This document shows positions 1,927-63,827 of a stretch of DNA of 64,000 nt, piece by piece. Where the stretch lies: positions 79,740-143,739 of the forward strand of contig JBAZTR010000001.1 in assembly GCA_041661745.1 (NCBI GenBank), given 5' to 3'. The translations under genes and the position numbers were made by a program. Source of the stretch: Patescibacteria group bacterium. Lineage in GTDB: Bacteria > Patescibacteriota > Patescibacteriia > UBA9934 > GWF2-40-263. Below the pieces are notes generated by a model. It saw nothing but the letters and a program-made list of their open reading frames with translations, searched no databases and was not told the origin of the DNA. Positions within the stretch are counted from its first letter, which is position 1. The number at the start of each line of letters is the position of its first letter.

Positions 1927-2026
1927 AATATCGCCTAACACGGTATATCTGGTTCCACTTCGCTCCACCCAAATTGCTTCGTAACTTCAGATATTCCGGG
2001 ATGTTGTTGGAAATAATTAAAAATTT

Positions 2027-9880: not shown

Positions 9881-11674
9881 ATGAGGAAATTTAATAGGGC
9901 TTCAATGATAGCATTGGTTGCCGCTTTTTTGTTTAGCTTCGTTGGGCCAGTAACGGTACAAGCTGCCACTGCGCCAGACCTTGGTGCGGCTGAAAGTTAC
10001 GCAGTTTTCGGTAAAGCCGGCGTAACTAACGACTCAGCCGTCGGAACAACCCATATTTGGGGGAATGTTGGCGCCGATGCCACCAATGTTACCTTTCTCG
10101 ATGACGCGACACAGGTGGATGGAGTAATAGATAGTGGAGTCGGGGTTGAAGCGGCCATTTTGTCGGCCTATGGTGAACTGGCAGGCGAGGGAGTTACCGG
10201 AGCTCTTGACCTGGCTGGGAACAATACGGTCACCCCAGGCGTTTACACCGTGGGAGCAACCAACCTAGATGGTACTCTTACACTTAACGGTGAAGGTGTT
10301 TACATCTTTCGAAGTTCGTCCAGTATTTCAACTTCCGGACCGGCACAAGTCGTTTTAACCAACGGTGCTTCGGCTTGTGATGTGTATTGGCAGATTCCTA
10401 CAGCCATGACTATTGGGACTGGCACAGTTATGGTGGGAACTATCATAACAAATACGGCCGAAATCACTCTCGCCACTGGCGCAAGCTTGAATGGTCGAGC
10501 TTTGTCTCGCAACACCCAAGTGACTTTGGACAGTAACTCGATTACTGAACCAGTTTGCACGGCGGCAGTGTCGGGGGGCGGTTCTAACCAATACACCGCC
10601 ACAATCAATGTCGTCAAAACCGTTATTAATGACAACGGCGGCACAAAGACCGTTGCTGATTTTCCGTTGTTTATTAACCAAGCTCCGGTCGACTCCGGTG
10701 TGACCAATAATTTTTATTTCTTTTTTCCAGGTTCGTATACCATGAGTGAAACAAGCGATCCTGGCTATACTCAATCCTTTTCTGGCGACTGCGGCAGTGA
10801 TGGTCAATTATACTTATATTCAAACGAAAATAAGTTTTGTATTATAACCAACAACGATATTGGCGCCCCGGTCGTGGCCCCGCCAGTACCACCTCTTATT
10901 GATGTGGTTAAGGTACCAAGTCCGCTAGTTTTACCAGACGGACCAGATACCGTGAACTACACTTATACCTTACGGAACGTCGGCACTGTTCCGGTGACTG
11001 ATATAACCATGGTTGGCGACACTTGTTATCCTATTGCTCTTACTTCAGGCGATACTAATGCCGATGGAAAACTCGATTTGACCGAAACCTGGGTGTACAA
11101 CTGTGCCAAAATTATTTCTGAAACCCACACCAATACCGTGGTGGCAACCGGCTGGGCCAACGGTCTTTCGGCCACTGATATTGCTAGTGCGACTGTAGTT
11201 GTTAATGATGAAATTGTTCCACCATTAATCCACGTGACCAAAGTTCCAAGTCCGTTAACTCTGTTAGCTGGGGGCGGCACGGTTACTTATACTGAAAGAA
11301 TTACCAATCCTGGAACTGTCGCTCTAAGTAATGTTCACCTTACGGATGATAAATGTAGTCCAATGGCCTATGTTTCCGGAGACGTTAACGGCGACTCTTT
11401 ACTTCAAACAACCGAAACCTGGACTTATACCTGTCAAACGAATTTGACTCAATCAACAACCAACACTGCCTCAGCTACGGGTGAAGCCAATGGCGTGACC
11501 GTACGTGATCTTGCTTTGGCTACGGTTACCGTGGCCGCGGCTGTTCCAGCTTTGCCTAATACCGGTCTTACTCCTGAAAAAGAAGTATCTTCATGGAATA
11601 TTGGCTTGTTGGCCGGCCTTATTACCCTAGCTTCTGTGTTACTTATAGCAGGACTAAAAAAACGTTTTAATTAG
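9881..11674 (+). CDS. sortase-anchored cell-surface protein: N-terminal ice-binding-like (DUF3494-type) domain, DUF11-type repeats, C-terminal LPNTG sorting signal
   Basis: Signal peptide. LGAAESYAVFGKAG...THIWGNVGA ice-binding-like motif. Repeated VVKVPSPL...NVGTVPVTD...TETW units. LPNTG followed by a TM helix and a KKRFN tail. Confidence 0.7.
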   Translation: MRKFNRASMIALVAAFLFSFVGPVTVQAATAPDLGAAESYAVFGKAGVTNDSAVGTTHIWGNVGADATNVTFLDDATQVDGVIDSGVGVEAAILSAYGELAGEGVTGALDLAGNNTVTPGVYTVGATNLDGTLTLNGEGVYIFRSSSSISTSGPAQVVLTNGASACDVYWQIPTAMTIGTGTVMVGTIITNTAEITLATGASLNGRALSRNTQVTLDSNSITEPVCTAAVSGGGSNQYTATINVVKTVINDNGGTKTVADFPLFINQAPVDSGVTNNFYFFFPGSYTMSETSDPGYTQSFSGDCGSDGQLYLYSNENKFCIITNNDIGAPVVAPPVPPLIDVVKVPSPLVLPDGPDTVNYTYTLRNVGTVPVTDITMVGDTCYPIALTSGDTNADGKLDLTETWVYNCAKIISETHTNTVVATGWANGLSATDIASATVVVNDEIVPPLIHVTKVPSPLTLLAGGGTVTYTERITNPGTVALSNVHLTDDKCSPMAYVSGDVNGDSLLQTTETWTYTCQTNLTQSTTNTASATGEANGVTVRDLALATVTVAAAVPALPNTGLTPEKEVSSWNIGLLAGLITLASVLLIAGLKKRFN

Positions 11675-12417: not shown

Positions 12418-14931
12418 ATGCCAAATCAAAAAGTTAAAATATTTAATAAATTTTTAGTAACAATTGTTTTAGCGGCGGTTTTTACTTTTGGTTTTGTCGG
12501 AACTATCGGAGCCGAGACTGTAATAGATTTTGGCTCGGCCGATAGTTTTGCTGTTCTGGCCGGCTCGGGGATTGAAAATACCGGCTTGACCACAATCAAC
12601 GGCGATGTCGGATCGTTCCCAACCCTTACCCAGAACGGTTTTGGTTCCGTTACTTTGAATGGAACAAACCATTTTGGTGATGTGGTTACGCAAGGGGCTA
12701 AAACCGATTTAACGGCCGCCTATATCGATGCCGCTGGTCGAGGGCCAACCACACCCATTGCCGCCGATCTTGGTGGACAGACCCTGCCTCCCGGTATTTA
12801 TAAAGATAATGGTGCTCCAGCGTCTCTTTCGAATTCCGGAACATTAACCCTCGATGGCGGCGGTGATGCTAACGCTATTTTTATTTTTCAATCGGCCACC
12901 ACTCTTACCACAGCCTCCGCCAGTGTGGTCGAACTAATCAATGGAGCTAAGGCTGAAAATGTTTTTTGGCAGGTTGGCAGTTCGGCCACTCTTGGGGCTA
13001 ACTCGACCTTCAAAGGAAATATAATAGCCTTAACATCTATTACTCTTATAACCGGAGCCGAGGTGGAGGGTCGAATGCTGGCGCGAAACGGCGCGGTTAC
13101 TTTAGATGCTAATGTCATTACTGTTCCCTTTGACACCACTCCTCCAGTCGCTATCTCCGACTTAGCCCTTTCCGGGGCCACCACTTCTTCTATTGTTCTC
13201 ACCTGGACGGCGCCTGGTGATGATGTTGGTGTTGGTACGGCCGCCCTTTATGATATTCGTTATTCCACTTCACCGATTGTTACGCCAGCTGACTTTACTG
13301 GTGCAGCTCTAGTTTCCGGTGAGCCGGTTCCCACAGCTGCTGGAACTTCTCAGACTAAGACCGTCTCCGGTCTTTCCGCCAACACTCTTTACTACTTCGC
13401 CATGAAGACGCAAGACGAAGTTCCGAATGTCTCAGATGTTTCTAATATTCCATCGTTGTCGACAGCGGCCATGCCTGACATTATTCCCCCAGTTGATATC
13501 TCCGATCTAGCTCTCTCAGGCGCCACCACTTCTTCCATTGTTCTCACCTGGACGGCGCCTGGTGATGATGTTGATGTTGGTACAGCCGCGCTTTACGATA
13601 TTCGTTATTCCACTTCACCGATTGTTACGCCAGCTGACTTCACTGGCGCAGCTTTGGTTTCCGGTGAACCGGTTCCCACAGCGGCTGGGACTTCTCAGAC
13701 TAAGACTGTCTCCGGACTTTCCGCCAACACTCTTTACTACTTCGCCATGAAGACACAAGACGAAGTGCCGAATGTTTCAGATGTTTCTAATATTCCATCG
13801 TTGTCAACGGTAGCGCTTAATCCGGAGGGAATGAGTCAATTAACGGGCACAATCAATGTTGTTAAAACCGTTATCAACGACAATGGAGGTATTAAGACTG
13901 TTGCCGACTTTCCATTGTTTATAAATGAGGTGCCGGTCGATTCCGGTGTAACCAATCACCTTTATTTTTATTCTTCAGGTTTATATACCATGAGCGAAAC
14001 CACCGATCCTGGATATACTCAAACCTTTTCCGGCGACTGCGGTAGTAGTGGTCAATTATATTTGTATTCAAGCGACAAGAAGTTTTGTATTATCACCAAC
14101 GATGATATTGGTGTTCCGGTCGTGGCTCCACCCGTGCCACCCCTTATTGATGTGGTTAAGGTGCCAAGCCCTTTGGCTTTGCCTGATGGTCCCGGTTTGG
14201 TGACTTACACTTATACCTTGCGCAATGTCGGAACCGTGCCAGTAACTGACATAACCATGGTTGTTGACACCTGTTCTCCCATTGTCCTTGATTCCGGTGA
14301 TATTAACGGTGATGCCAAACTCGACCTGACCGAAACTTGGGTGTACAAATGTGCCAAAATTATTTCAGAAACCCACACCAATATCGTAGTGGTTACCGGC
14401 TGGGCCAACGGTCTTTCGGCTACTGACATTGCCAGTGCCACTGTGGTTGTTGGTGATTCAATTATTCCGCCTTTAATTCACGTGACTAAAGTTCCGAGCC
14501 CATTAACATTGCTAGCCGGGGGCGGATCCGTTACTTATACCGAAACAATCACAAATCCGGGCACGGTTGCTTTAAATAATGTCGCCCTGGCAGATGATAA
14601 ATGCAGTCCAATGAAATTTATTTCCGGCGATACTAACAATGATTCAAAACTTGATGTCGATGAAGCATGGAAATTTACTTGTCAGACCAATTTAACTAAA
14701 ACTACGACAAACACCGCCACGGCCAGTGGCGAAGCTAATGGTCTTACAATTAGAGATTTTGCTCTCACCACCGTTGTCGTGGCGGCGGTTGCTCCGGTTT
14801 TGCCCAGCACCGGCCTGGCGCCGGAAAGGGAAGTGACTTCACGGGATTTAATCACGTTGGCCGGTCTTCTTATCCTGGTTACTACTCTTTTTGCAGTGAG
14901 ATTAAAACACACGAGTAAATTAGGACGATAA
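12418..14931 (+). CDS. sortase-anchored cell-surface protein: ice-binding-like (DUF3494-type) domain, two tandem FN3 domains, DUF11-type repeats, LPSTG sorting signal
   Basis: Signal peptide. FAVLAGSGIENTGLTTINGDVG motif. Two near-identical FN3 repeats of about 116 aa. The C-terminal half is paralogous to the 9881 gene. LPSTG followed by a TM helix and a basic tail. Confidence 0.7.
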   Translation: MPNQKVKIFNKFLVTIVLAAVFTFGFVGTIGAETVIDFGSADSFAVLAGSGIENTGLTTINGDVGSFPTLTQNGFGSVTLNGTNHFGDVVTQGAKTDLTAAYIDAAGRGPTTPIAADLGGQTLPPGIYKDNGAPASLSNSGTLTLDGGGDANAIFIFQSATTLTTASASVVELINGAKAENVFWQVGSSATLGANSTFKGNIIALTSITLITGAEVEGRMLARNGAVTLDANVITVPFDTTPPVAISDLALSGATTSSIVLTWTAPGDDVGVGTAALYDIRYSTSPIVTPADFTGAALVSGEPVPTAAGTSQTKTVSGLSANTLYYFAMKTQDEVPNVSDVSNIPSLSTAAMPDIIPPVDISDLALSGATTSSIVLTWTAPGDDVDVGTAALYDIRYSTSPIVTPADFTGAALVSGEPVPTAAGTSQTKTVSGLSANTLYYFAMKTQDEVPNVSDVSNIPSLSTVALNPEGMSQLTGTINVVKTVINDNGGIKTVADFPLFINEVPVDSGVTNHLYFYSSGLYTMSETTDPGYTQTFSGDCGSSGQLYLYSSDKKFCIITNDDIGVPVVAPPVPPLIDVVKVPSPLALPDGPGLVTYTYTLRNVGTVPVTDITMVVDTCSPIVLDSGDINGDAKLDLTETWVYKCAKIISETHTNIVVVTGWANGLSATDIASATVVVGDSIIPPLIHVTKVPSPLTLLAGGGSVTYTETITNPGTVALNNVALADDKCSPMKFISGDTNNDSKLDVDEAWKFTCQTNLTKTTTNTATASGEANGLTIRDFALTTVVVAAVAPVLPSTGLAPEREVTSRDLITLAGLLILVTTLFAVRLKHTSKLGR
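13141..13836 (+). repeat. near-perfect tandem duplication (2 x ~348 bp) encoding FN3-like domains
   Basis: Unit 13141-13488 is repeated at 13489-13836 with only a few substitutions. Confidence 0.8.
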
Positions 14932-16158: not shown

Positions 16159-16231
16159 GGGCTCGTGGAGGTAATGGCAACCTCACTAGGTTTGACACCA
16201 AGAGACGCGGGTCCGATTCCCGCCGAGTCCA
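16159..16231 (+). ncRNA. tRNA-like element (possible pseudo-tRNA; anticodon-loop triplet UGA)
   Basis: 73 nt fold into a cloverleaf. Acceptor GGGCTCG/CGAGTCC, D-stem GAGG/CCTC with a GG loop, a perfect T-arm GCGGG-TCCGATT-CCCGC. The anticodon stem has an A-A mismatch, position 55 is C and position 37 is C. Confidence 0.3.
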
Positions 16232-16361
16232 GAAAAATAAACCGACGCCAAGCAATCCTGCTCGAAAGGGCGGGATTTGCTTTGTTTATGCGAGGAACGT
16301 GGTATATAATTGATGTTGGAGAGATTAAATCAATATTGCTAATACTAATTATTAAAATTTT

Positions 16362-16859
16362 ATGAGAGAAGGACAGCTTGACCCTTCCGAACAAGCGAAT
16401 AATATAGAAGGGTCGCCCGAAGGTGCGGCCGAACAAAAAGAGTCGGAGAGAATAATTAAAACAGCAGGAGTTTTAGTTTTTAAAGATAACAAAGTACTTT
16501 TGGTCTGTCACGGAAAAAAAGCTGGTCACATTGATGGCACATATGGTATTCCGGCGGGAAGACTTGAAGATGGAGAATTATCGATTGAAACAGCCGTAAG
16601 AGAGCTGCTCGAAGAGTCAGGTTTAGAAACTACAGTAGAAGATCTTGAAAAAATACCTGGGACTTATACAGCATCAATTAAAAGAAAAGGTGGAACAAGA
16701 AATTTTTCTTTAGAAACTTTTCGGTGTAAAAATTGGAGTGGCGAGCTGTGTGCTAGCGACGAGACAGTTCCTGAATGGGTTGATATAGATAGTTTAGATA
16801 AACTAGACCTCCTGCCAAATGTAAAAAGAATGATTTCTGATGCCATGACTTTAAAGTAA
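16362..16859 (+). CDS. NUDIX hydrolase
   Basis: Nudix box GIPAGRLEDGELSIETAVRELLEESGL. Carries a 30-aa N-terminal leader shared with the gene at 19707. Confidence 0.8.
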   Translation: MREGQLDPSEQANNIEGSPEGAAEQKESERIIKTAGVLVFKDNKVLLVCHGKKAGHIDGTYGIPAGRLEDGELSIETAVRELLEESGLETTVEDLEKIPGTYTASIKRKGGTRNFSLETFRCKNWSGELCASDETVPEWVDIDSLDKLDLLPNVKRMISDAMTLK

Positions 16860-16918
16860 AACAGCGTCTAACTATCGATATTTGGTTCCACATTGGTAAT
16901 ATTAATTATCAAAATTAT

Positions 16919-17326
16919 ATGAAAAAAATCCTTTTGTCCGGCCTTGTTGCCGGCATCGTTATGTTGGTTATTGCCGTGGCTCTAAGTTTTGCATGGCAAT
17001 TTATTTTTCCGTCCGTAGCGCTTGAATACGCCACGCCGTTGTTCCGCCCATGGTCCGATCCACTCATGTCGCTTATATTCGTTTGTCCATTACTCACTGG
17101 TTTTTTTCTGGCCTGGATTTGGAGTATGGTCAAGGGTTGTCACCAAGGTTCGGCTAGCAAAAAAGTTCTTTTGTTTGCCACTGGCTGGACGATTTTTTCC
17201 TTCCTGGGCATTTTTATGACTTACAGTTGTTTTCAAATGTCGTTTCTAATGATGTTAACCTGGGTTCTCAGCTCGGCCACACAATATTATTTTGGGACGT
17301 GGGTTTTGATTAAAATGAATAAGTAA
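16919..17326 (+). CDS. hypothetical membrane protein
   Basis: Four predicted TM helices. Confidence 0.45.
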   Translation: MKKILLSGLVAGIVMLVIAVALSFAWQFIFPSVALEYATPLFRPWSDPLMSLIFVCPLLTGFFLAWIWSMVKGCHQGSASKKVLLFATGWTIFSFLGIFMTYSCFQMSFLMMLTWVLSSATQYYFGTWVLIKMNK

Positions 17327-17401: not shown

Positions 17402-17734
17402 ATGCAAGAAAAATTCTCAAGTGCTACTCCACCACAAGAGAGCCGAGAAATTAAAATAGAGCAATTCGAATCTGCAATAAGAAAATTTTTTAGGGAACAG
17501 TGGCCAGATGACCCTAAATCAAAAAGAATTAATTATGGGCTTGGATTTGACATCAGTGATCCCAAAAGTGCTGATATGAGACGTGTGCAATCAGGTGATT
17601 TTGAGATAACTCATTTCCAAAAATTACCCACGTCTGACCCTAAAAAACCAAGCCTTCATTTCTACGTAGGTGGCACAGAATTTCATATCAGTGGTAAGGC
17701 AGCTGATAGAATTTATGAGCTTATGAAAGAATAA
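17402..17734 (+). CDS. hypothetical protein
   Basis: 110-aa ORF with a good start context. Confidence 0.4.
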   Translation: MQEKFSSATPPQESREIKIEQFESAIRKFFREQWPDDPKSKRINYGLGFDISDPKSADMRRVQSGDFEITHFQKLPTSDPKKPSLHFYVGGTEFHISGKAADRIYELMKE

Positions 17735-19642: not shown

Positions 19643-19706
19643 AATTTTAAAAAAATATATAATTGGTGATAAAGAGACCAAATTAATACTATTTTTTCAA
19701 AACCAT

Positions 19707-20714
19707 ATGAGAGAACAACAATTCAGCCCTTCCGAACAAGCGAATAATATAGAAGGGCGAATCGAGAGTGCAACTGAAAAAAAAGAGCCGCGACGCGATT
19801 TTGAATCTCGTTTTAACGATCTCGCAAGAGAACGAAGTATTATTGAGCACGACAGCGAGATAACTTTTCAAGTGGCCCAAATGCAAATGGAAGGGTTGCA
19901 GACTTTAATAAATGAATACGGTAGTGATGCGGTTTTTGAAGCAATAAAAAAACAATTTAAATCTAAAACAGGTGATGATACTTTTTCTACTTTTGAGGTG
20001 GTTAAGGCGCTTGAGTCTAATCCTAAAAAGCGAGCGTCTTTGTTTGAAAAAATGAAGGCCGACGCTCAACAAGAAGGCGAAAAATTTGATAGGGCTGTTA
20101 ATCCAGATCTTACAGGCGAGGCCAGGTGGAATTCTACACCACGCCGGTATTTTGATTCGCACTGGGGTAGTGGTCAAAATTTTGTTCGCGGAGTTGTGTC
20201 CGGAGTCGAAGCAATGCAAGCGCTTGATAGTTTTTTTGGCCGAATCGCGCCCGAGCGATATTACAGAATTTTAAGCAGCCGCGTGTCTGAATTTGCGACA
20301 TATGTTTCTCAATTCGAAGAGGAAGAACAAAAATTAAAAGGCCAGCTGGCCGAAGCGGGGAATGATATTTTTCGTCTTGTTGAAGATAGAGATGAAACCA
20401 GAAAAGAACGAAGAGAACAATTGCTCGATCGAGCTGATGAACTAAGTGAAGAATTAACGAACGAGATCGAGAGAATTACCAACGAAGTAAAGGCCAAGCT
20501 TGAAGAATGGCGGGCTAAGGCTGTCGGCGATTTAAGCAGAGTTGGAAGTTTAGAAACTGCGAGTGATGAAATGAAAACTGCTTTACAAAAAGCCTTGGGA
20601 GAAGTGGAAGCTGAAATTGCGAGTCGTGTAAAAAAAACAGAACAGGAAATTATCGAGCAAACCGCGGCTTTACGAAAAGTTATGAGGGGATTGGAGGAAC
20701 TTTACCGTTCTTAA
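19707..20714 (+). CDS. hypothetical coiled-coil protein with shared N-terminal leader (MREQQFSPSEQANNIEG)
   Basis: The ORF track starts at 19599, overlapping the previous gene. The M at 19707 reproduces the leader seen on the NUDIX gene. Confidence 0.5.
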   Translation: MREQQFSPSEQANNIEGRIESATEKKEPRRDFESRFNDLARERSIIEHDSEITFQVAQMQMEGLQTLINEYGSDAVFEAIKKQFKSKTGDDTFSTFEVVKALESNPKKRASLFEKMKADAQQEGEKFDRAVNPDLTGEARWNSTPRRYFDSHWGSGQNFVRGVVSGVEAMQALDSFFGRIAPERYYRILSSRVSEFATYVSQFEEEEQKLKGQLAEAGNDIFRLVEDRDETRKERREQLLDRADELSEELTNEIERITNEVKAKLEEWRAKAVGDLSRVGSLETASDEMKTALQKALGEVEAEIASRVKKTEQEIIEQTAALRKVMRGLEELYRS

Positions 20715-20828
20715 TCAAAAAATTACTGGTGGTTGGACTATTTTTGTCGGAATTGGTATACTGATGACATACAGTTGTTTTTCCGCACCTTTTTAAATGT
20801 CGGTGACCAATGAACAAATAATTTTTAC

Positions 20829-37166: not shown

Positions 37167-37282
37167 GCCCCCACCCCAACCCTCCCCCGTCGTGGCGACG
37201 AGAGAGGGAGAACTAATTTATTGGTTCTTCCTCCCTCGTATGTCACTAGTTAACATACGGGGGAGGATAAGAGGAGAGGGCC
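37167..37282. repeat. MITE-like G/C-rich inverted-repeat element (copy A, atpG-atpD spacer)
   Basis: The first 47 nt are identical to copy B. Nested inverted repeats (CCCCACCCCAACCCTCCCCC ... GGGGGAGGATAAGAGGAGAGGG) enclose internal hairpins. Confidence 0.7.
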
Positions 37283-37286
37283 TTAA

Positions 37287-38707
<1,421 letters not shown>

Positions 38708-38824
38708 GCCCCCACCCCAACCCTCCCCCGTCGTGGCGACGAGAGAGGGAGAACAATAGAAAACAAATAACTCCCCCAAGAATTCTCCCTCCCTCATATG
38801 GCCGCATATGGGGGAGGGTAAGGG
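38708..38824. repeat. MITE-like G/C-rich inverted-repeat element (copy B, atpD-atpC spacer)
   Basis: Starts right after the atpD stop. Its GGGGAGAGGG end sits about 6 nt before the atpC ATG. Confidence 0.7.
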
Positions 38825-62359: not shown

Positions 62360-63827
62360 GATTTAAACGATTGAGTGATTCCTCTTTACCCAAAACCCAA
62401 ATTAACTCAAATGGGCTGGGTGAAGCCGCGGCCCCTGACAAAGCCGCGCGCAACGGCCAAAGAACGGCGCCGTTTTGTAAGTTGTTACTTACAATATACT
62501 CCCGAATGGCCGCTTCAATCAACTCGACCGAGGACAAATTTAATGTTTCAAACAACGGAATAATTTTTTTAAGCTGCTCTAATGCTTCTTCTCCGGCGAA
62601 GCCGGACCCGGCTCCGCCGGGCCTGCTGGATTTTTTCCAAATCAAAAGTTCAGCCGCATAATCAGGTAATTTTTGATACGAATCAACTTTTTCCACGATA
62701 TCCGAAAGTAAAACCAAACGTTCACGTTCAACTGTACAGATTTTTTTGATCAGCTCGGGGGAAAAGGTCTTCCCTGCCTCGGCCAAATACGGCAAACAAA
62801 GGGTTGTCAACTCATCGACCGACGTCTTGTGGATATATTGGCTGTTCATCCAGTTAAGCTTCTCAACATCAAAGACAGCTCCGGCCTTATTCACTTTCTC
62901 AATGTCAAAAAGTTCAATAAATTCGGCCATGGAATAAATTTCCTGGTCAGCTTTGGGGTTAAAGCCACAAAGAGCCATGTAGTTATTTAGAGCCGCAGGT
63001 AGATATCCTTTTTTCAAAAAGTCTTCAACAGAAACATCACCCTGTCTTTTGGAAAGTTTCTTTTTGTCTTTATTCAAAACCTGGGGTAAGTGAGCAAAGA
63101 ATGGGATTTCCCAACCCAGCGCTTTATATATCACCAAATGTTTTGGTGTTGATGGCAGCCATTCTTCAGCTCGAAAAGCATGAGTGATTTTCATGAAATG
63201 GTCATCAACCACCACGGCCAAGTGATAAGTCGGAAAACCATCTGATTTTAAGATAATCGGGTCATCAACTTCGGCGTTATCAAATTTTATATGACCACGA
63301 ATCAAATCATCGAATTCCGAAGTCCCCTCGGGAATTCTTAAACGAATAACATATTTTTCACCGGCTGCTAATTTTGCTTGAATTTCTTCCGGAGTTAAAC
63401 GAAGACAGGTCCGATCGTATTTCGGCGGAAGTTTGGCCAGAGCCAATTCTTTATGCATGGTTTCCAATCTTTCTTCACTGCAAAAACAATAATAAGCCGA
63501 GCCCCGTTCCACCAATAATTTGGCGTGTTCTTGATATAACGCCAGGCGGCTTGATTGGGTGTAAGGACCAAACTCGCCTTTTTCACCAAGTGTCCCGTCG
63601 TCTTTAATTATCGGACCCTCGTCATAATCAACGCCGACTTGGCCTAAAACTTTGATTAAATTTTCAACAGCTCCCGGCACATAACGACTTTGGTCAGTAT
63701 CCTCAACTCTTAGAAGAAACTGGCCATGATGTTTTCTGGCAAAAAAATAACTGTACAAAGCCGAACGCAGTCCACCTATGTGAAGGTAACCGGTTGGCGA
63801 AGGGGCGAAGCGGGTGCGAATGACCAT
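62334..63827 (-). CDS. gltX: glutamyl-tRNA synthetase
   Basis: HIGG motif (PSPTGYLHIGGLRSAL) and KMSKS (KLSKRQG). Carries an in-frame palindromic insert. Confidence 0.9.
   Translation of the reverse strand: MVIRTRFAPSPTGYLHIGGLRSALYSYFFARKHHGQFLLRVEDTDQSRYVPGAVENLIKVLGQVGVDYDEGPIIKDDGTLGEKGEFGPYTQSSRLALYQEHAKLLVERGSAYYCFCSEERLETMHKELALAKLPPKYDRTCLRLTPEEIQAKLAAGEKYVIRLRIPEGTSEFDDLIRGHIKFDNAEVDDPIILKSDGFPTYHLAVVVDDHFMKITHAFRAEEWLPSTPKHLVIYKALGWEIPFFAHLPQVLNKDKKKLSKRQGDVSVEDFLKKGYLPAALNNYMALCGFNPKADQEIYSMAEFIELFDIEKVNKAGAVFDVEKLNWMNSQYIHKTSVDELTTLCLPYLAEAGKTFSPELIKKICTVERERLVLLSDIVEKVDSYQKLPDYAAELLIWKKSSRPGGAGSGFAGEEALEQLKKIIPLFETLNLSSVELIEAAIREYIVSNNLQNGAVLWPLRAALSGAAASPSPFELIWVLGKEESLNRLNHAVQLLSA

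What the first reader, a model, noticed from the sequence alone, without database searches (positions are those of the whole stretch)
16330..16425. Identical 30-nt block and shared leader peptide at the 5' ends of two unrelated genes (NUDIX hydrolase and a coiled-coil protein at 19707)
Both genes begin ATGAGAGAA. After 12 diverged nt they share a perfectly identical 30-mer, CCTTCCGAACAAGCGAATAATATAGAAGGG, whose ends can pair (CCCTTC/GAAGGG), and then they diverge again. Upstream of both lies TAATACTA about 20 nt before the ATG. Conservation at synonymous positions inside an otherwise diverged region points to selection at the nucleic-acid level: an mRNA structure, a small-RNA target, a translational control element or a recombination site. 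The peptide MRExQxxPSEQANNIEG is the by-product. The second copy is at 19685-19765.
Basis: seen in the sequence. Interest (0 to 1): 0.55.

Follow-up and report, generated by a model that had tools for sequence, protein, structure and literature searches.

The report
Borrowed gene start with conserved hairpin
A NUDIX hydrolase gene in an uncultured Patescibacteria genome has swapped its own start for a copy of its neighbour's promoter and first 28 codons, and a 31-base hairpin-forming core of that copy has stayed identical while the rest diverged by about a third; this is an ordinary gene-fusion event with one small, possibly regulatory, oddity.

Summary
The identical block is 31 nt, not 30 (16382-16412 and 19727-19757), and occurs only twice in the window.

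It is the core of a larger paralogous 5' module of about 143 nt (16303-16445 vs 19656-19790, 72% identity). The module holds a -10-like box, the 5'UTR, the ATG and 28 codons.

The module is native to the coiled-coil gene, because its orthologues carry the same N-terminus. All 25 NUDIX homologues found lack it and start at residue 28. So the NUDIX gene captured a copy, fused in frame at its own start codon.

In related genomes both gene families are integron cassettes. An attC left-half relic follows the NUDIX stop codon.

The flanks differ at about 33% of sites, mostly by transitions, and both copies have changed since the duplication. A 31-nt perfect run is therefore unexpected (permutation P about 2e-4). 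The other long runs sit on the -10 box and the start codon. The block's ends are the arms of a hairpin at +18 to +54, and a related hairpin exists in the nearest orthologues.

The most likely reading is a cis-acting mRNA element kept by selection. Its function is unproven. It occurs in one genome only. Interest is modest.

The parts
16303..16445 (+). 5' module, copy on the NUDIX gene: -10-like box, 5'UTR, ATG and 28 leader codons
   Evidence: blastn 144 nt, 72% identity, E 6e-21 against 19656-19790; alignments
19656..19790 (+). 5' module, native copy on the coiled-coil gene
   Evidence: Orthologues P0002-P0008 carry the homologous N-terminus MxEQxF...PESATEQKE. DNA from -8 to +27 is 86% identical to the L004 orthologue.
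16303..16312 (+). TATATAATTG, a -10-like promoter box and a 10-nt identical run. The partner is at 19656-19665.
   Evidence: It marks the left end of the homology. TGg precedes it in the NUDIX copy (extended -10 type; read from sequence).
16340..16364 (+). Proximal UTR TAATACTAATTATTAAAATTTTATG. TAATACTA is shared with the coiled-coil copy (19684-19691). The whole 25 nt matches 22/25 with the sequence before the next gene (16897-16921).
16361..16370 (+). TATGAGAGAA, the start-codon region and a 10-nt identical run. The partner is at 19706-19715.
16382..16412 (+). Identical 31-mer CCCTTCCGAACAAGCGAATAATATAGAAGGG, copy 1
19727..19757 (+). Identical 31-mer, copy 2
16379..16415 (+). Predicted hairpin, copy 1: 9-bp stem UGACCCUUC/GAAGGGUCG with a 19-nt loop, at +18 to +54 of the ORF
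   Evidence: -12.0 kcal/mol, z -2.4
19721..19762 (+). Predicted hairpin, copy 2: 7 bp GCCCUUC/GAAGGGC, then a bulged A, then 4 bp AUUC/GAAU, with the same 19-nt loop
   Evidence: -11.8 kcal/mol, z -2.75; 19685-19765: -16.5 kcal/mol, z -4.2
16443..16448 (+). Fusion junction. TCG (codon 28) is the last module codon and occupies the position of the ancestral NUDIX ATG. GAG (codon 29) corresponds to codon 2 of all NUDIX homologues.
16362..16859 (+). NUDIX hydrolase CDS (165 aa): a 28-aa borrowed tail plus an intact NUDIX domain
   Evidence: The NUDIX box GX5EX7REUXEEXGU was read from the translation.
19707..20714 (+). Coiled-coil protein CDS (335 aa), no known family
16866..16891 (+). attC left-half relic GTCTAAC-N5-ATATTTGGTTCCAC just after the NUDIX stop codon
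   Evidence: It shares 21 specified bases with the window's genuine attC at 1933-1958. It is a weak hit of the attC left-half model.
20731..20808 (+). Fragment homologous to residues 89-114 of the 135-aa membrane protein that follows NUDIX (16919-17326). It is collinear with the module duplication.
   Evidence: blastn 52 nt, 73%, E 1.9e-5; tblastn 61% over 26 aa, E 6.5e-5; (repeat family D11)
16159..16231 (+). tRNA-Ser(TGA), followed by a terminator-like hairpin at 16254-16277, upstream of module copy 1

Best explanation
The shared block is the most conserved part of a partial gene duplication.

A segment of about 140 nt from the coiled-coil gene was copied and joined in frame to the NUDIX gene 3.3 kb upstream. 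The segment holds the -10 box, the 5'UTR, the start codon and the first 28 codons of a disordered acidic tail. It replaced the NUDIX gene's own promoter-proximal region and ATG (shown).

The NUDIX gene probably arrived as a promoterless integron cassette, so the borrowed module now supplies its transcription and translation start signals (inferred).

Since the duplication both copies have accumulated substitutions at about a third of sites. Three pieces are the exception: the -10 box, the start-codon region and the 31-mer. The 31-mer is therefore most likely under purifying selection at the nucleotide level in both genes (inferred).

Its ends are the arms of a hairpin that begins 18-21 nt after the AUG, at the downstream edge of an initiating ribosome. 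The most likely role is a cis-acting mRNA stem-loop that belongs to the module's expression signals, setting translation initiation or 5' mRNA stability and giving the two genes a common control (inferred; mechanism untested). The invariant 19-nt loop suggests that a sequence-specific partner reads it.
For: Extent of homology.

Direction of transfer: coiled-coil orthologues at 52-70% identity start MxEQxF...PESATEQKE, homologous to the leader. All 25 NUDIX homologues are 133-152 aa, cover 66-83% of the query (76-83% for the 22 closest), and those aligned start M(E/N)NIIKTAG at residue 28 of the window protein.

Real divergence rather than unrelated flanks: 27 of 34 substitutions are transitions. 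Against the orthologue outgroups, the NUDIX copy keeps ancestral P19 and Q25, which the coiled-coil copy lost. The coiled-coil copy keeps S21 and T23, which the NUDIX copy lost.

Uneven conservation: the run of 31 has P = 1.75e-4. The next two runs, 10 nt each, lie on the -10 box and the start codon (P = 0.02 for two such runs).

Synonymous sites: 10/10 are identical, using codons of 12-19% usage at five positions.

Hairpin. The first pair outside the identical block is A-U in one copy and G-C in the other. A hairpin with the same outer stem CCUUC/GAAGG but a different interior lies at the same position in orthologues L002, L006 and L019 (-11 to -13.4 kcal/mol, z about -2.5). It is weaker in L008, L010 and L021.

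Cassette context: the NUDIX homologue in L015 and the coiled-coil orthologue in L004/L002 are integron cassettes. The window has an attC at 1929-2010 and an attC relic after the NUDIX stop codon.
Against: There are only two copies, in a single genome, so no population or phylogenetic replication of the 31-mer is available.

Hairpin stability is ordinary for this genome: 16% of internal 48-nt windows fold at -11.8 kcal/mol or better. The z-scores against shuffles are modest.

The hairpin is absent from more distant orthologues (L009, L011, L014), and the outer stem is lost in L008.

The shared stem bases in the orthologues could reflect common descent rather than selection. There is only one compensatory-looking pair.

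There is no Rfam match. There are no transcript data, so the promoter, the transcription start and even translation of the 28-codon tail on NUDIX are inferred.
Confidence: 0.55

Rival explanations
1. Short-tract gene conversion, or some other homogenisation between the two copies, recently reset the 31 nt. The block has no function of its own.
For: The two copies are direct repeats only 3.3 kb apart on one replicon. With just two sequences, identity cannot separate selection from recent copying.
Against: Outside the block the longest identical runs are 10 nt. That is too short for RecA-type pairing to start or resolve a tract confined to these 31 nt. Conversion does not predict that the tract ends exactly at the two arms of an inverted repeat. 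It also does not predict that the other conserved runs fall on the -10 box and the start codon.
Confidence: 0.17
2. The constraint is on the peptide PSEQANNIEG, a short linear motif needed on both proteins. The nucleotide identity is incidental.
For: All 10 residues are conserved, while 11 of the 18 flanking leader residues differ.
Against: All 10 synonymous positions are identical, although 3 of 8 comparable flank codons differ synonymously (P about 0.01). Five block codons are rare. Coiled-coil orthologues do not conserve this peptide. No other protein among 1.84 billion representatives carries it.
Confidence: 0.1
3. The block acts at the DNA level. It is either an operator for a regulator bound downstream of the promoter, or a site-specific recombination site whose direct repeats allow excision of the 3.3-kb segment between them. 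Excision would leave intact in-frame genes on both products.
For: The block is an inverted repeat with a perfectly conserved spacer, lying in frame in both genes. The neighbourhood descends from integron cassettes. Collinear second homology (the membrane-gene fragment) flanks the two different gene bodies.
Against: Six-nt arms with a 19-nt spacer fit neither tyrosine-recombinase core sites nor attC. The attC models do not hit the block. No tyrosine recombinase is encoded in the window. There is no third copy and no deletion variant in the collections searched.
Confidence: 0.1
4. Chance or an assembly artefact.
For: 31 is a common k-mer size, and the contig is a metagenome assembly.
Against: Permutation P = 1.75e-4. 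The block sits inside a 143-nt true homology. The assembly used k = 141. Both proteins are found identically on two public contigs of 113 kb and 366 kb. An assembler cannot create a shared 31-mer that is flanked on both sides by diverged homologues.
Confidence: 0.02

Closest known systems
Chimeric genes made by partial duplication and fusion (5'-end or promoter capture)
   Same: A donor gene's promoter-proximal region and first codons are copied and joined in frame to an unrelated recipient gene. The donor's orthologues carry the segment and the recipient's homologues lack it.
   Different: One 31-nt piece has resisted the divergence of about 33% seen in the rest of the copied segment. The recipient appears to be a former integron cassette.
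5'-proximal mRNA stem-loops that control stability or translation (for example the ompA and ermC-type 5' stabilisers, and start-codon-proximal structures); named from general knowledge
   Same: A stable hairpin close to the 5' end of the message. It is conserved at synonymous sites and shared by genes driven by the same module.
   Different: It lies inside the ORF at +18 to +54, not in the UTR. It has a large, invariant 19-nt loop. There is no experimental or covariation proof and no Rfam family.
Integron gene cassettes that carry their own promoter
   Same: In relatives the coiled-coil gene is a cassette with 115 nt of upstream sequence including CTATAAT. The NUDIX homologue is a cassette with only about 60 nt upstream.
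   Different: In the window only one truncated attC relic adjoins the two genes and there is no integrase. The shared block is not an attC.
Phase-variation systems with a shared recombination site in the 5' coding region (Mycoplasma pulmonis vsa/vrs, the R64 shufflon); recalled from memory
   Same: An identical short block lies just inside the 5' ends of different gene bodies.
   Different: Those sites are inverted relative to each other, a dedicated recombinase is adjacent, and only one expression site has a promoter. Here the copies are direct, both have the promoter box, and no recombinase is nearby.

Membership tests
Chimeric gene by partial duplication / 5'-end capture | The shared segment is native to the donor gene family | tested here: met
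   Eight coiled-coil orthologues, seven with an intact 5' end, show the homologous N-terminus. DNA from -8 to +27 is 83-86% identical to the orthologues.
Chimeric gene by partial duplication / 5'-end capture | Homologues of the recipient gene lack the segment | tested here: met
   25 NUDIX homologues of 133-152 aa cover 66-83% of the query (76-83% for the 22 closest). Those aligned start at residue 28 of the window protein.
Chimeric gene by partial duplication / 5'-end capture | A defined in-frame junction | tested here: met
   Homology to the coiled-coil copy ends at codon 28 (TCG vs CCG). Codon 29 onward aligns with codon 2 onward of the NUDIX homologues.
   Two copies only in the window. 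The shared part is 28 residues of low-complexity tail. A profile search of 1.84 billion representatives gave only one spurious hit.
Curated RNA families (Rfam 15) | A covariance-model match | tested here: not met
   Only two tRNAs reach the gathering score. Nothing credible appears at E up to 10 in either region.
Cis-acting 5' mRNA stem-loop | Pairing conserved, with compensatory changes, across homologues | tested here: inconclusive
   There is one A-U / G-C exchange between the two copies. The same outer stem with a different interior occurs in L002, L006 and L019. It is weak or absent in more distant orthologues. The stability is not an outlier in this genome.
Cis-acting 5' mRNA stem-loop | Transcribed, and affects expression | not testable with these tools
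   There are no transcript or reporter data.
Integron attC site | R''/R' inverse core sites (RYYYAAC / GTTRRRY), L boxes, 55-150 nt imperfect palindrome | tested here: not met
   The block has no AAC/GTT cores. attC half-site models built from L004 hit 1929-2010, and weakly 16862-16889, but not the block.
Site-specific recombinase core site / shufflon-type site | Arms of about 11-13 bp around a 6-8 bp spacer; a recombinase gene nearby; inverted copies for switching | tested here: not met
   The arms are 6 nt with a 19-nt spacer, and the copies are direct. tblastn with the relatives' integrase finds nothing in the window.
Intrinsic terminator / attenuator | A GC-rich hairpin followed by a U tract | tested here: not met
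   No terminator-like site is called at either block. The hairpin is followed by UCGCCCGA in one copy and CGAAUCGA in the other.
Diversity-generating retroelement TR/VR pair | Mismatches confined to adenines of one copy | tested here: not met
   The substitutions involve all four bases: A 14, C 10, T 6, G 4.

The most novel reading that the evidence does not exclude
The promoter-UTR-leader segment with its invariant hairpin is a portable 'expression adapter'. On this reading, in Patescibacteria whose integron cassettes have become fixed in the chromosome, the module spreads between neighbouring promoterless cassettes. The hairpin would be the element that a dedicated RNA-binding or DNA-binding factor recognises, placing unrelated cassette genes under one control. 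Hints in this direction are the 22/25-nt match between the UTRs of NUDIX and the next gene, and the collinear membrane-gene fragment.
Probability: 0.1. Interest if true: 0.6.

Novelty: new member of a known kind. Interest (0 to 1): 0.3.

Why it matters
If the hairpin is functional, it would be a small, lineage-specific cis-regulatory element in a phylum where almost nothing is known about gene control. It would also show how a promoterless, horizontally acquired cassette can gain expression by borrowing a neighbour's start region. If it is not functional, the locus is simply a clear example of a chimeric gene made by partial duplication. Its practical value is for annotation: the first 28 residues of this NUDIX protein are not part of the enzyme family.

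Tried and rejected
- **Searches for further copies.** I searched the exact 30-mer and a pattern degenerate at the peptide level (CCNTCNGARCARGCNAAYAAYATHGARGG). Neither gave a hit in the species-representative genomes, the JGI metagenomes or (30-mer only) the viral contigs. The source genome itself is absent from those sets, so this says little about other copies in the same genome.
- **Leader peptide.** A word-index search found no candidates. It also missed the source proteins, so it is uninformative. The exhaustive profile search returned one spurious eukaryote-like repeat protein.
- **Rfam.** Nothing at the gathering or the permissive threshold.
- **Antisense or sRNA partner.** There is no match or complement of 10 nt or more to the block elsewhere in the window.
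- **Same hairpin motif elsewhere.** CCTTC-N8-30-GAAGG occurs at the two copies plus one chance site.
- **attC identity of the block and attC relics near the two genes.** Motif scans taken from the relatives were at chance level. Only the half-site after NUDIX and the full attC at 1929-2010 stood up.
- **DGR.** Rejected on the mismatch spectrum.
- **A general +20 hairpin rule in this genome.** Rejected: 5' windows of genes fold no better than internal windows.
- **Formal pair counting across orthologues.** Not attempted, because the region is rich in indels and MAFFT puts the stems one column out of register.
- **Function of the coiled-coil protein.** Only weak apolipoprotein-like helical-repeat similarity.
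- **Literature on integrons in Patescibacteria.** Nothing specific in the held library.

Full report
**What is in the sequence**

The window comes from a Patescibacteria metagenome-assembled genome (ENA ERZ27249449 contig k141_700822; the NCBI copy has locus tags WC702_). Public gene calls place a 165-aa NUDIX gene at 16362-16859 and a 335-aa gene at 19707-20714.

Both genes start ATGAGAGAA. Both contain CCCTTCCGAACAAGCGAATAATATAGAAGGG at +21 to +51 (16382-16412 and 19727-19757). That is 31 identical nt, one more than reported. There is no other copy in the window even at 3 mismatches.

The gene bodies are unrelated. One has a NUDIX domain at residues 34-155 with an intact NUDIX box. The other is a helical, coiled-coil protein with only weak apolipoprotein-like similarity.

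**The block is the core of a longer duplication**

Repeat finding, MAFFT and blastn all show collinear homology from TATATAATTG (16303 / 19656) through the ATG to codon 28 (16445 / 19790). The alignment is 144 nt at 72% identity, E 6e-21. Of the 34 substitutions, 27 are transitions, as expected for true mutational divergence and not for unrelated sequence.

The left edge of the homology is a -10-like box. The right edge is exact. Codon 28 (TCG, against CCG in the other copy) occupies the place of the ancestral NUDIX ATG. From codon 29 the protein aligns with codon 2 of every NUDIX homologue aligned (M-E/N-N-I-I-K-T-A-G...).

**Direction of transfer**

Eight orthologues of the coiled-coil protein were found, at 52-70% identity for the closer seven. 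They begin MxEQxF, run through a variable acidic stretch, then continue PESATEQKE...FESRY. This is homologous to the leader.

All 25 NUDIX homologues are 133-152 aa and cover 66-83% of the query (76-83% for the 22 closest). They therefore lack the leader. The module is thus native to the coiled-coil gene, and a copy was fused onto NUDIX.

Using the orthologues as outgroup, both copies have changed since the duplication. The NUDIX copy keeps ancestral P19 and Q25. The coiled-coil copy keeps S21 and T23 and the ancestral codons 4-7.

**Is the perfect 31-mer more than chance?**

With 101 matches in 143 columns, a run of 31 has permutation P = 1.75e-4. Once it is removed, the two longest runs (10 nt each) are the -10 box TATATAATTG and the start region TATGAGAGAA. 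Two such runs have P = 0.02. The conserved islands therefore coincide with known expression signals, which is the pattern expected from selection on function.

The block's ten codons are identical at all synonymous sites, although five are rare codons: CCT 18%, TCC 19%, GCG 19%, ATA 12% and GGG 14%. The chance of identity is 1.2e-4 at saturation. It is about 0.01 at the synonymous divergence seen in the flanks, where 3 of 8 comparable codons differ.

Gene conversion is a poor fit. Nothing outside the block offers more than 10 nt of identity to start or resolve a tract.

**Structure**

The ends of the identical run are the two arms of an inverted repeat.

| Copy | Stem | Loop | Energy | z vs shuffles |
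|---|---|---|---|---|
| NUDIX | 9 bp | 19 nt | -12.0 kcal/mol | -2.4 |
| Coiled-coil | 7 bp + bulge + 4 bp | 19 nt | -11.8 kcal/mol | -2.75 |

The finding's second interval, 19685-19765, folds at -16.5 kcal/mol with z -4.2. The first pair outside the identical run is A-U in one copy and G-C in the other.

Orthologues L002, L006 and L019 have, at the same place, a hairpin with the same outer stem (G)CCUUC/GAAGG(U). Its interior differs: there is an extra inner stem CUGGA/UCCAG and the loop carries indels. These fold at -11 to -13.4 kcal/mol with z about -2.5. L008 keeps only the inner stem. L010 and L021 have a weak CUUC/GRAG version. L009, L011 and L014 have none.

There are three caveats:
- A -12 kcal/mol fold in 48 nt is ordinary in this genome; 16% of internal windows do as well.
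- GAA-rich leaders make GAAG arms easy to come by.
- The shared stem bases may simply be inherited.

**Context**

Both gene families are integron cassettes in related genomes.
- L004 is an array of at least 10 same-strand small ORFs separated by attC sites. Their R''-type boxes (for example CATATAAC, CCGATAAC, CGTACAAC) are complementary to the first bases of their own cassette (GTTATATG, GTTATCGG, GTTGTACG).
- A 1295-bp coiled-coil cassette is 100% identical between L004 and L002. In L002 it sits beside a divergent integron-integrase-like gene of 270 aa (TIGR02249, 219 bits, below the 265-bit cut-off).
- The NUDIX homologue in L015 is a cassette with only about 60 nt between the cassette boundary and its ATG.

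The window itself has one full attC at 1929-2010 (model E 1.4e-5 for the left half and 0.03 for the right). Directly after the NUDIX stop codon there is an attC left half, GTCTAAC-N5-ATATTTGGTTCCAC, at 16866-16891. No recombinase gene is present in the window.

Two further traces of local copying exist. A fragment of the membrane-protein gene that follows NUDIX lies just after the coiled-coil stop codon (20731-20808). The 25 nt before the NUDIX ATG match the 25 nt before the membrane gene's ATG at 22 of 25 positions.

A simple history fits these traces. A second copy of the coiled-coil cassette lay upstream of a NUDIX cassette. A deletion then joined its codon 28 to NUDIX codon 2. This history is inferred, not shown.

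**Mechanism proposed**

Shown: the 143-nt duplication, its direction, the in-frame junction, the non-random conservation of three islands, and the hairpin potential.

Inferred: the module supplies the promoter and the translation start for a formerly promoterless NUDIX cassette. The 31-mer is a cis-acting mRNA stem-loop, beginning at the downstream edge of the initiating ribosome, that is part of what makes the module work. It would act on translation initiation or on 5' stability. Its invariant loop suggests recognition by a sequence-specific partner.

Most genes here lack a Shine-Dalgarno sequence, so other start-site determinants are plausible. I put about 0.9 on the duplication and fusion account and about 0.45-0.5 on a functional hairpin.

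**Rivals**

- Short-tract conversion, about 0.17.
- A peptide motif, about 0.1.
- A DNA-level operator or recombination site, about 0.1.
- Artefact or chance, about 0.02.

No known family fits:
- There is no Rfam match.
- The block is not an attC.
- It is not a terminator.
- It is not a DGR repeat.
- Its geometry does not fit a recombinase core site.

**Verdict**

The locus is a new member of known kinds, namely a chimeric gene by 5'-end capture and a candidate 5' mRNA stem-loop. It is seen in one genome only, with no expression data. Interest is about 0.3.

Noticed in passing
L004:2300-13471 (GCA_964505965.1, contig CAZDJX010000002.1): This is an integron-type cassette array in a relative. 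At least 10 same-strand small ORFs are separated by attC sites of 90-150 nt. In each, the left box (...nnnnAAC) is complementary to the first bases (GTTnnnn) of its own cassette, and there are L-box-like inner repeats. One cassette is the coiled-coil orthologue. I found no paper in the held library describing integrons in Patescibacteria.
   Followed up: partly
L002:9885-11179 = L004:2327-3621: A 1295-bp coiled-coil cassette is 100% identical in two different genomic contexts. Its limits fall exactly at TTATATG... and ...AAACG|TT. In L002, L003 and L005 it lies next to a divergent 270-aa tyrosine recombinase whose best match is integron integrase TIGR02249 (219 bits, below the 265-bit cut-off). 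This suggests recent cassette mobility.
   Followed up: partly
L015:3156-5055: A NUDIX homologue (P0019) is the second cassette of a small integron. The layout is an integrase fragment, then ...CGCCGCCCA|TTATACG, a 111-aa cassette, an attC, NUDIX (R'' CGTATAAC at its stop codon, complementary to GTTATACG at its cassette start), and a 125-aa cassette.
   Followed up: partly
window 1929-2010: A complete attC site of the same family lies between two small ORFs (1627-1926 and 2027-2353). The attC half-site models built from L004 give E 1.4e-5 for the left half and 0.03 for the right. The window genome therefore carries at least one intact cassette boundary, but no integrase within the 64 kb.
   Followed up: partly
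window 17402-17734 vs L004:4296-4673: The 110-aa ORF two genes downstream of NUDIX (MQEKFSSATPPQESREI...) is homologous, including its 5' region, to a cassette gene of the L004 array (MPEKFEGATPPQESKEI...): blastn 106 nt, 74%, E 5e-12. This adds to the view that 16.3-21.2 kb is a decayed cassette array.
   Followed up: no
L002:9895-9915, L006, L009 (about 95 nt upstream of the coiled-coil ATG in orthologues): There is a perfect 8-bp palindrome GAAAATGC-GTA-GCATTTTC upstream of the cassette promoter. The loop is flipped to TAC in L006. In L009 both arms change together (AAAATAC/GTATTTT). It may be an operator or a terminator. It is absent from the window.
   Followed up: no
window 37167-37213 and 38708-38754: Two 100% identical 47-nt copies of GCCCCCACCCCAACCCTCCCCCGTCGTGGCGACGAGAGAGGGAGAAC lie 1541 nt apart. 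They are unusually GC-rich for this 44% GC window. A related pair is at 37359-37411 and 62589-62641 (74%).
   Followed up: no
window 13131-13775 and 10589-10888 / 13837-14136: There is a 345-nt tandem repeat (91% identity) inside the 837-aa ice-binding-like/fn3 surface protein. A 300-nt segment at 81% identity is shared with the neighbouring 589-aa paralogue. A sortase gene lies between the two.
   Followed up: no
window 16378-16405: Only in the NUDIX copy, the diverged flank plus the block make a good sigma-70-like promoter (TTGACC, 16 nt, TAATAT) inside the leader. It would fire downstream of the leader's ATG. Its significance is unknown, because no ATG follows before the NUDIX domain.
   Followed up: no
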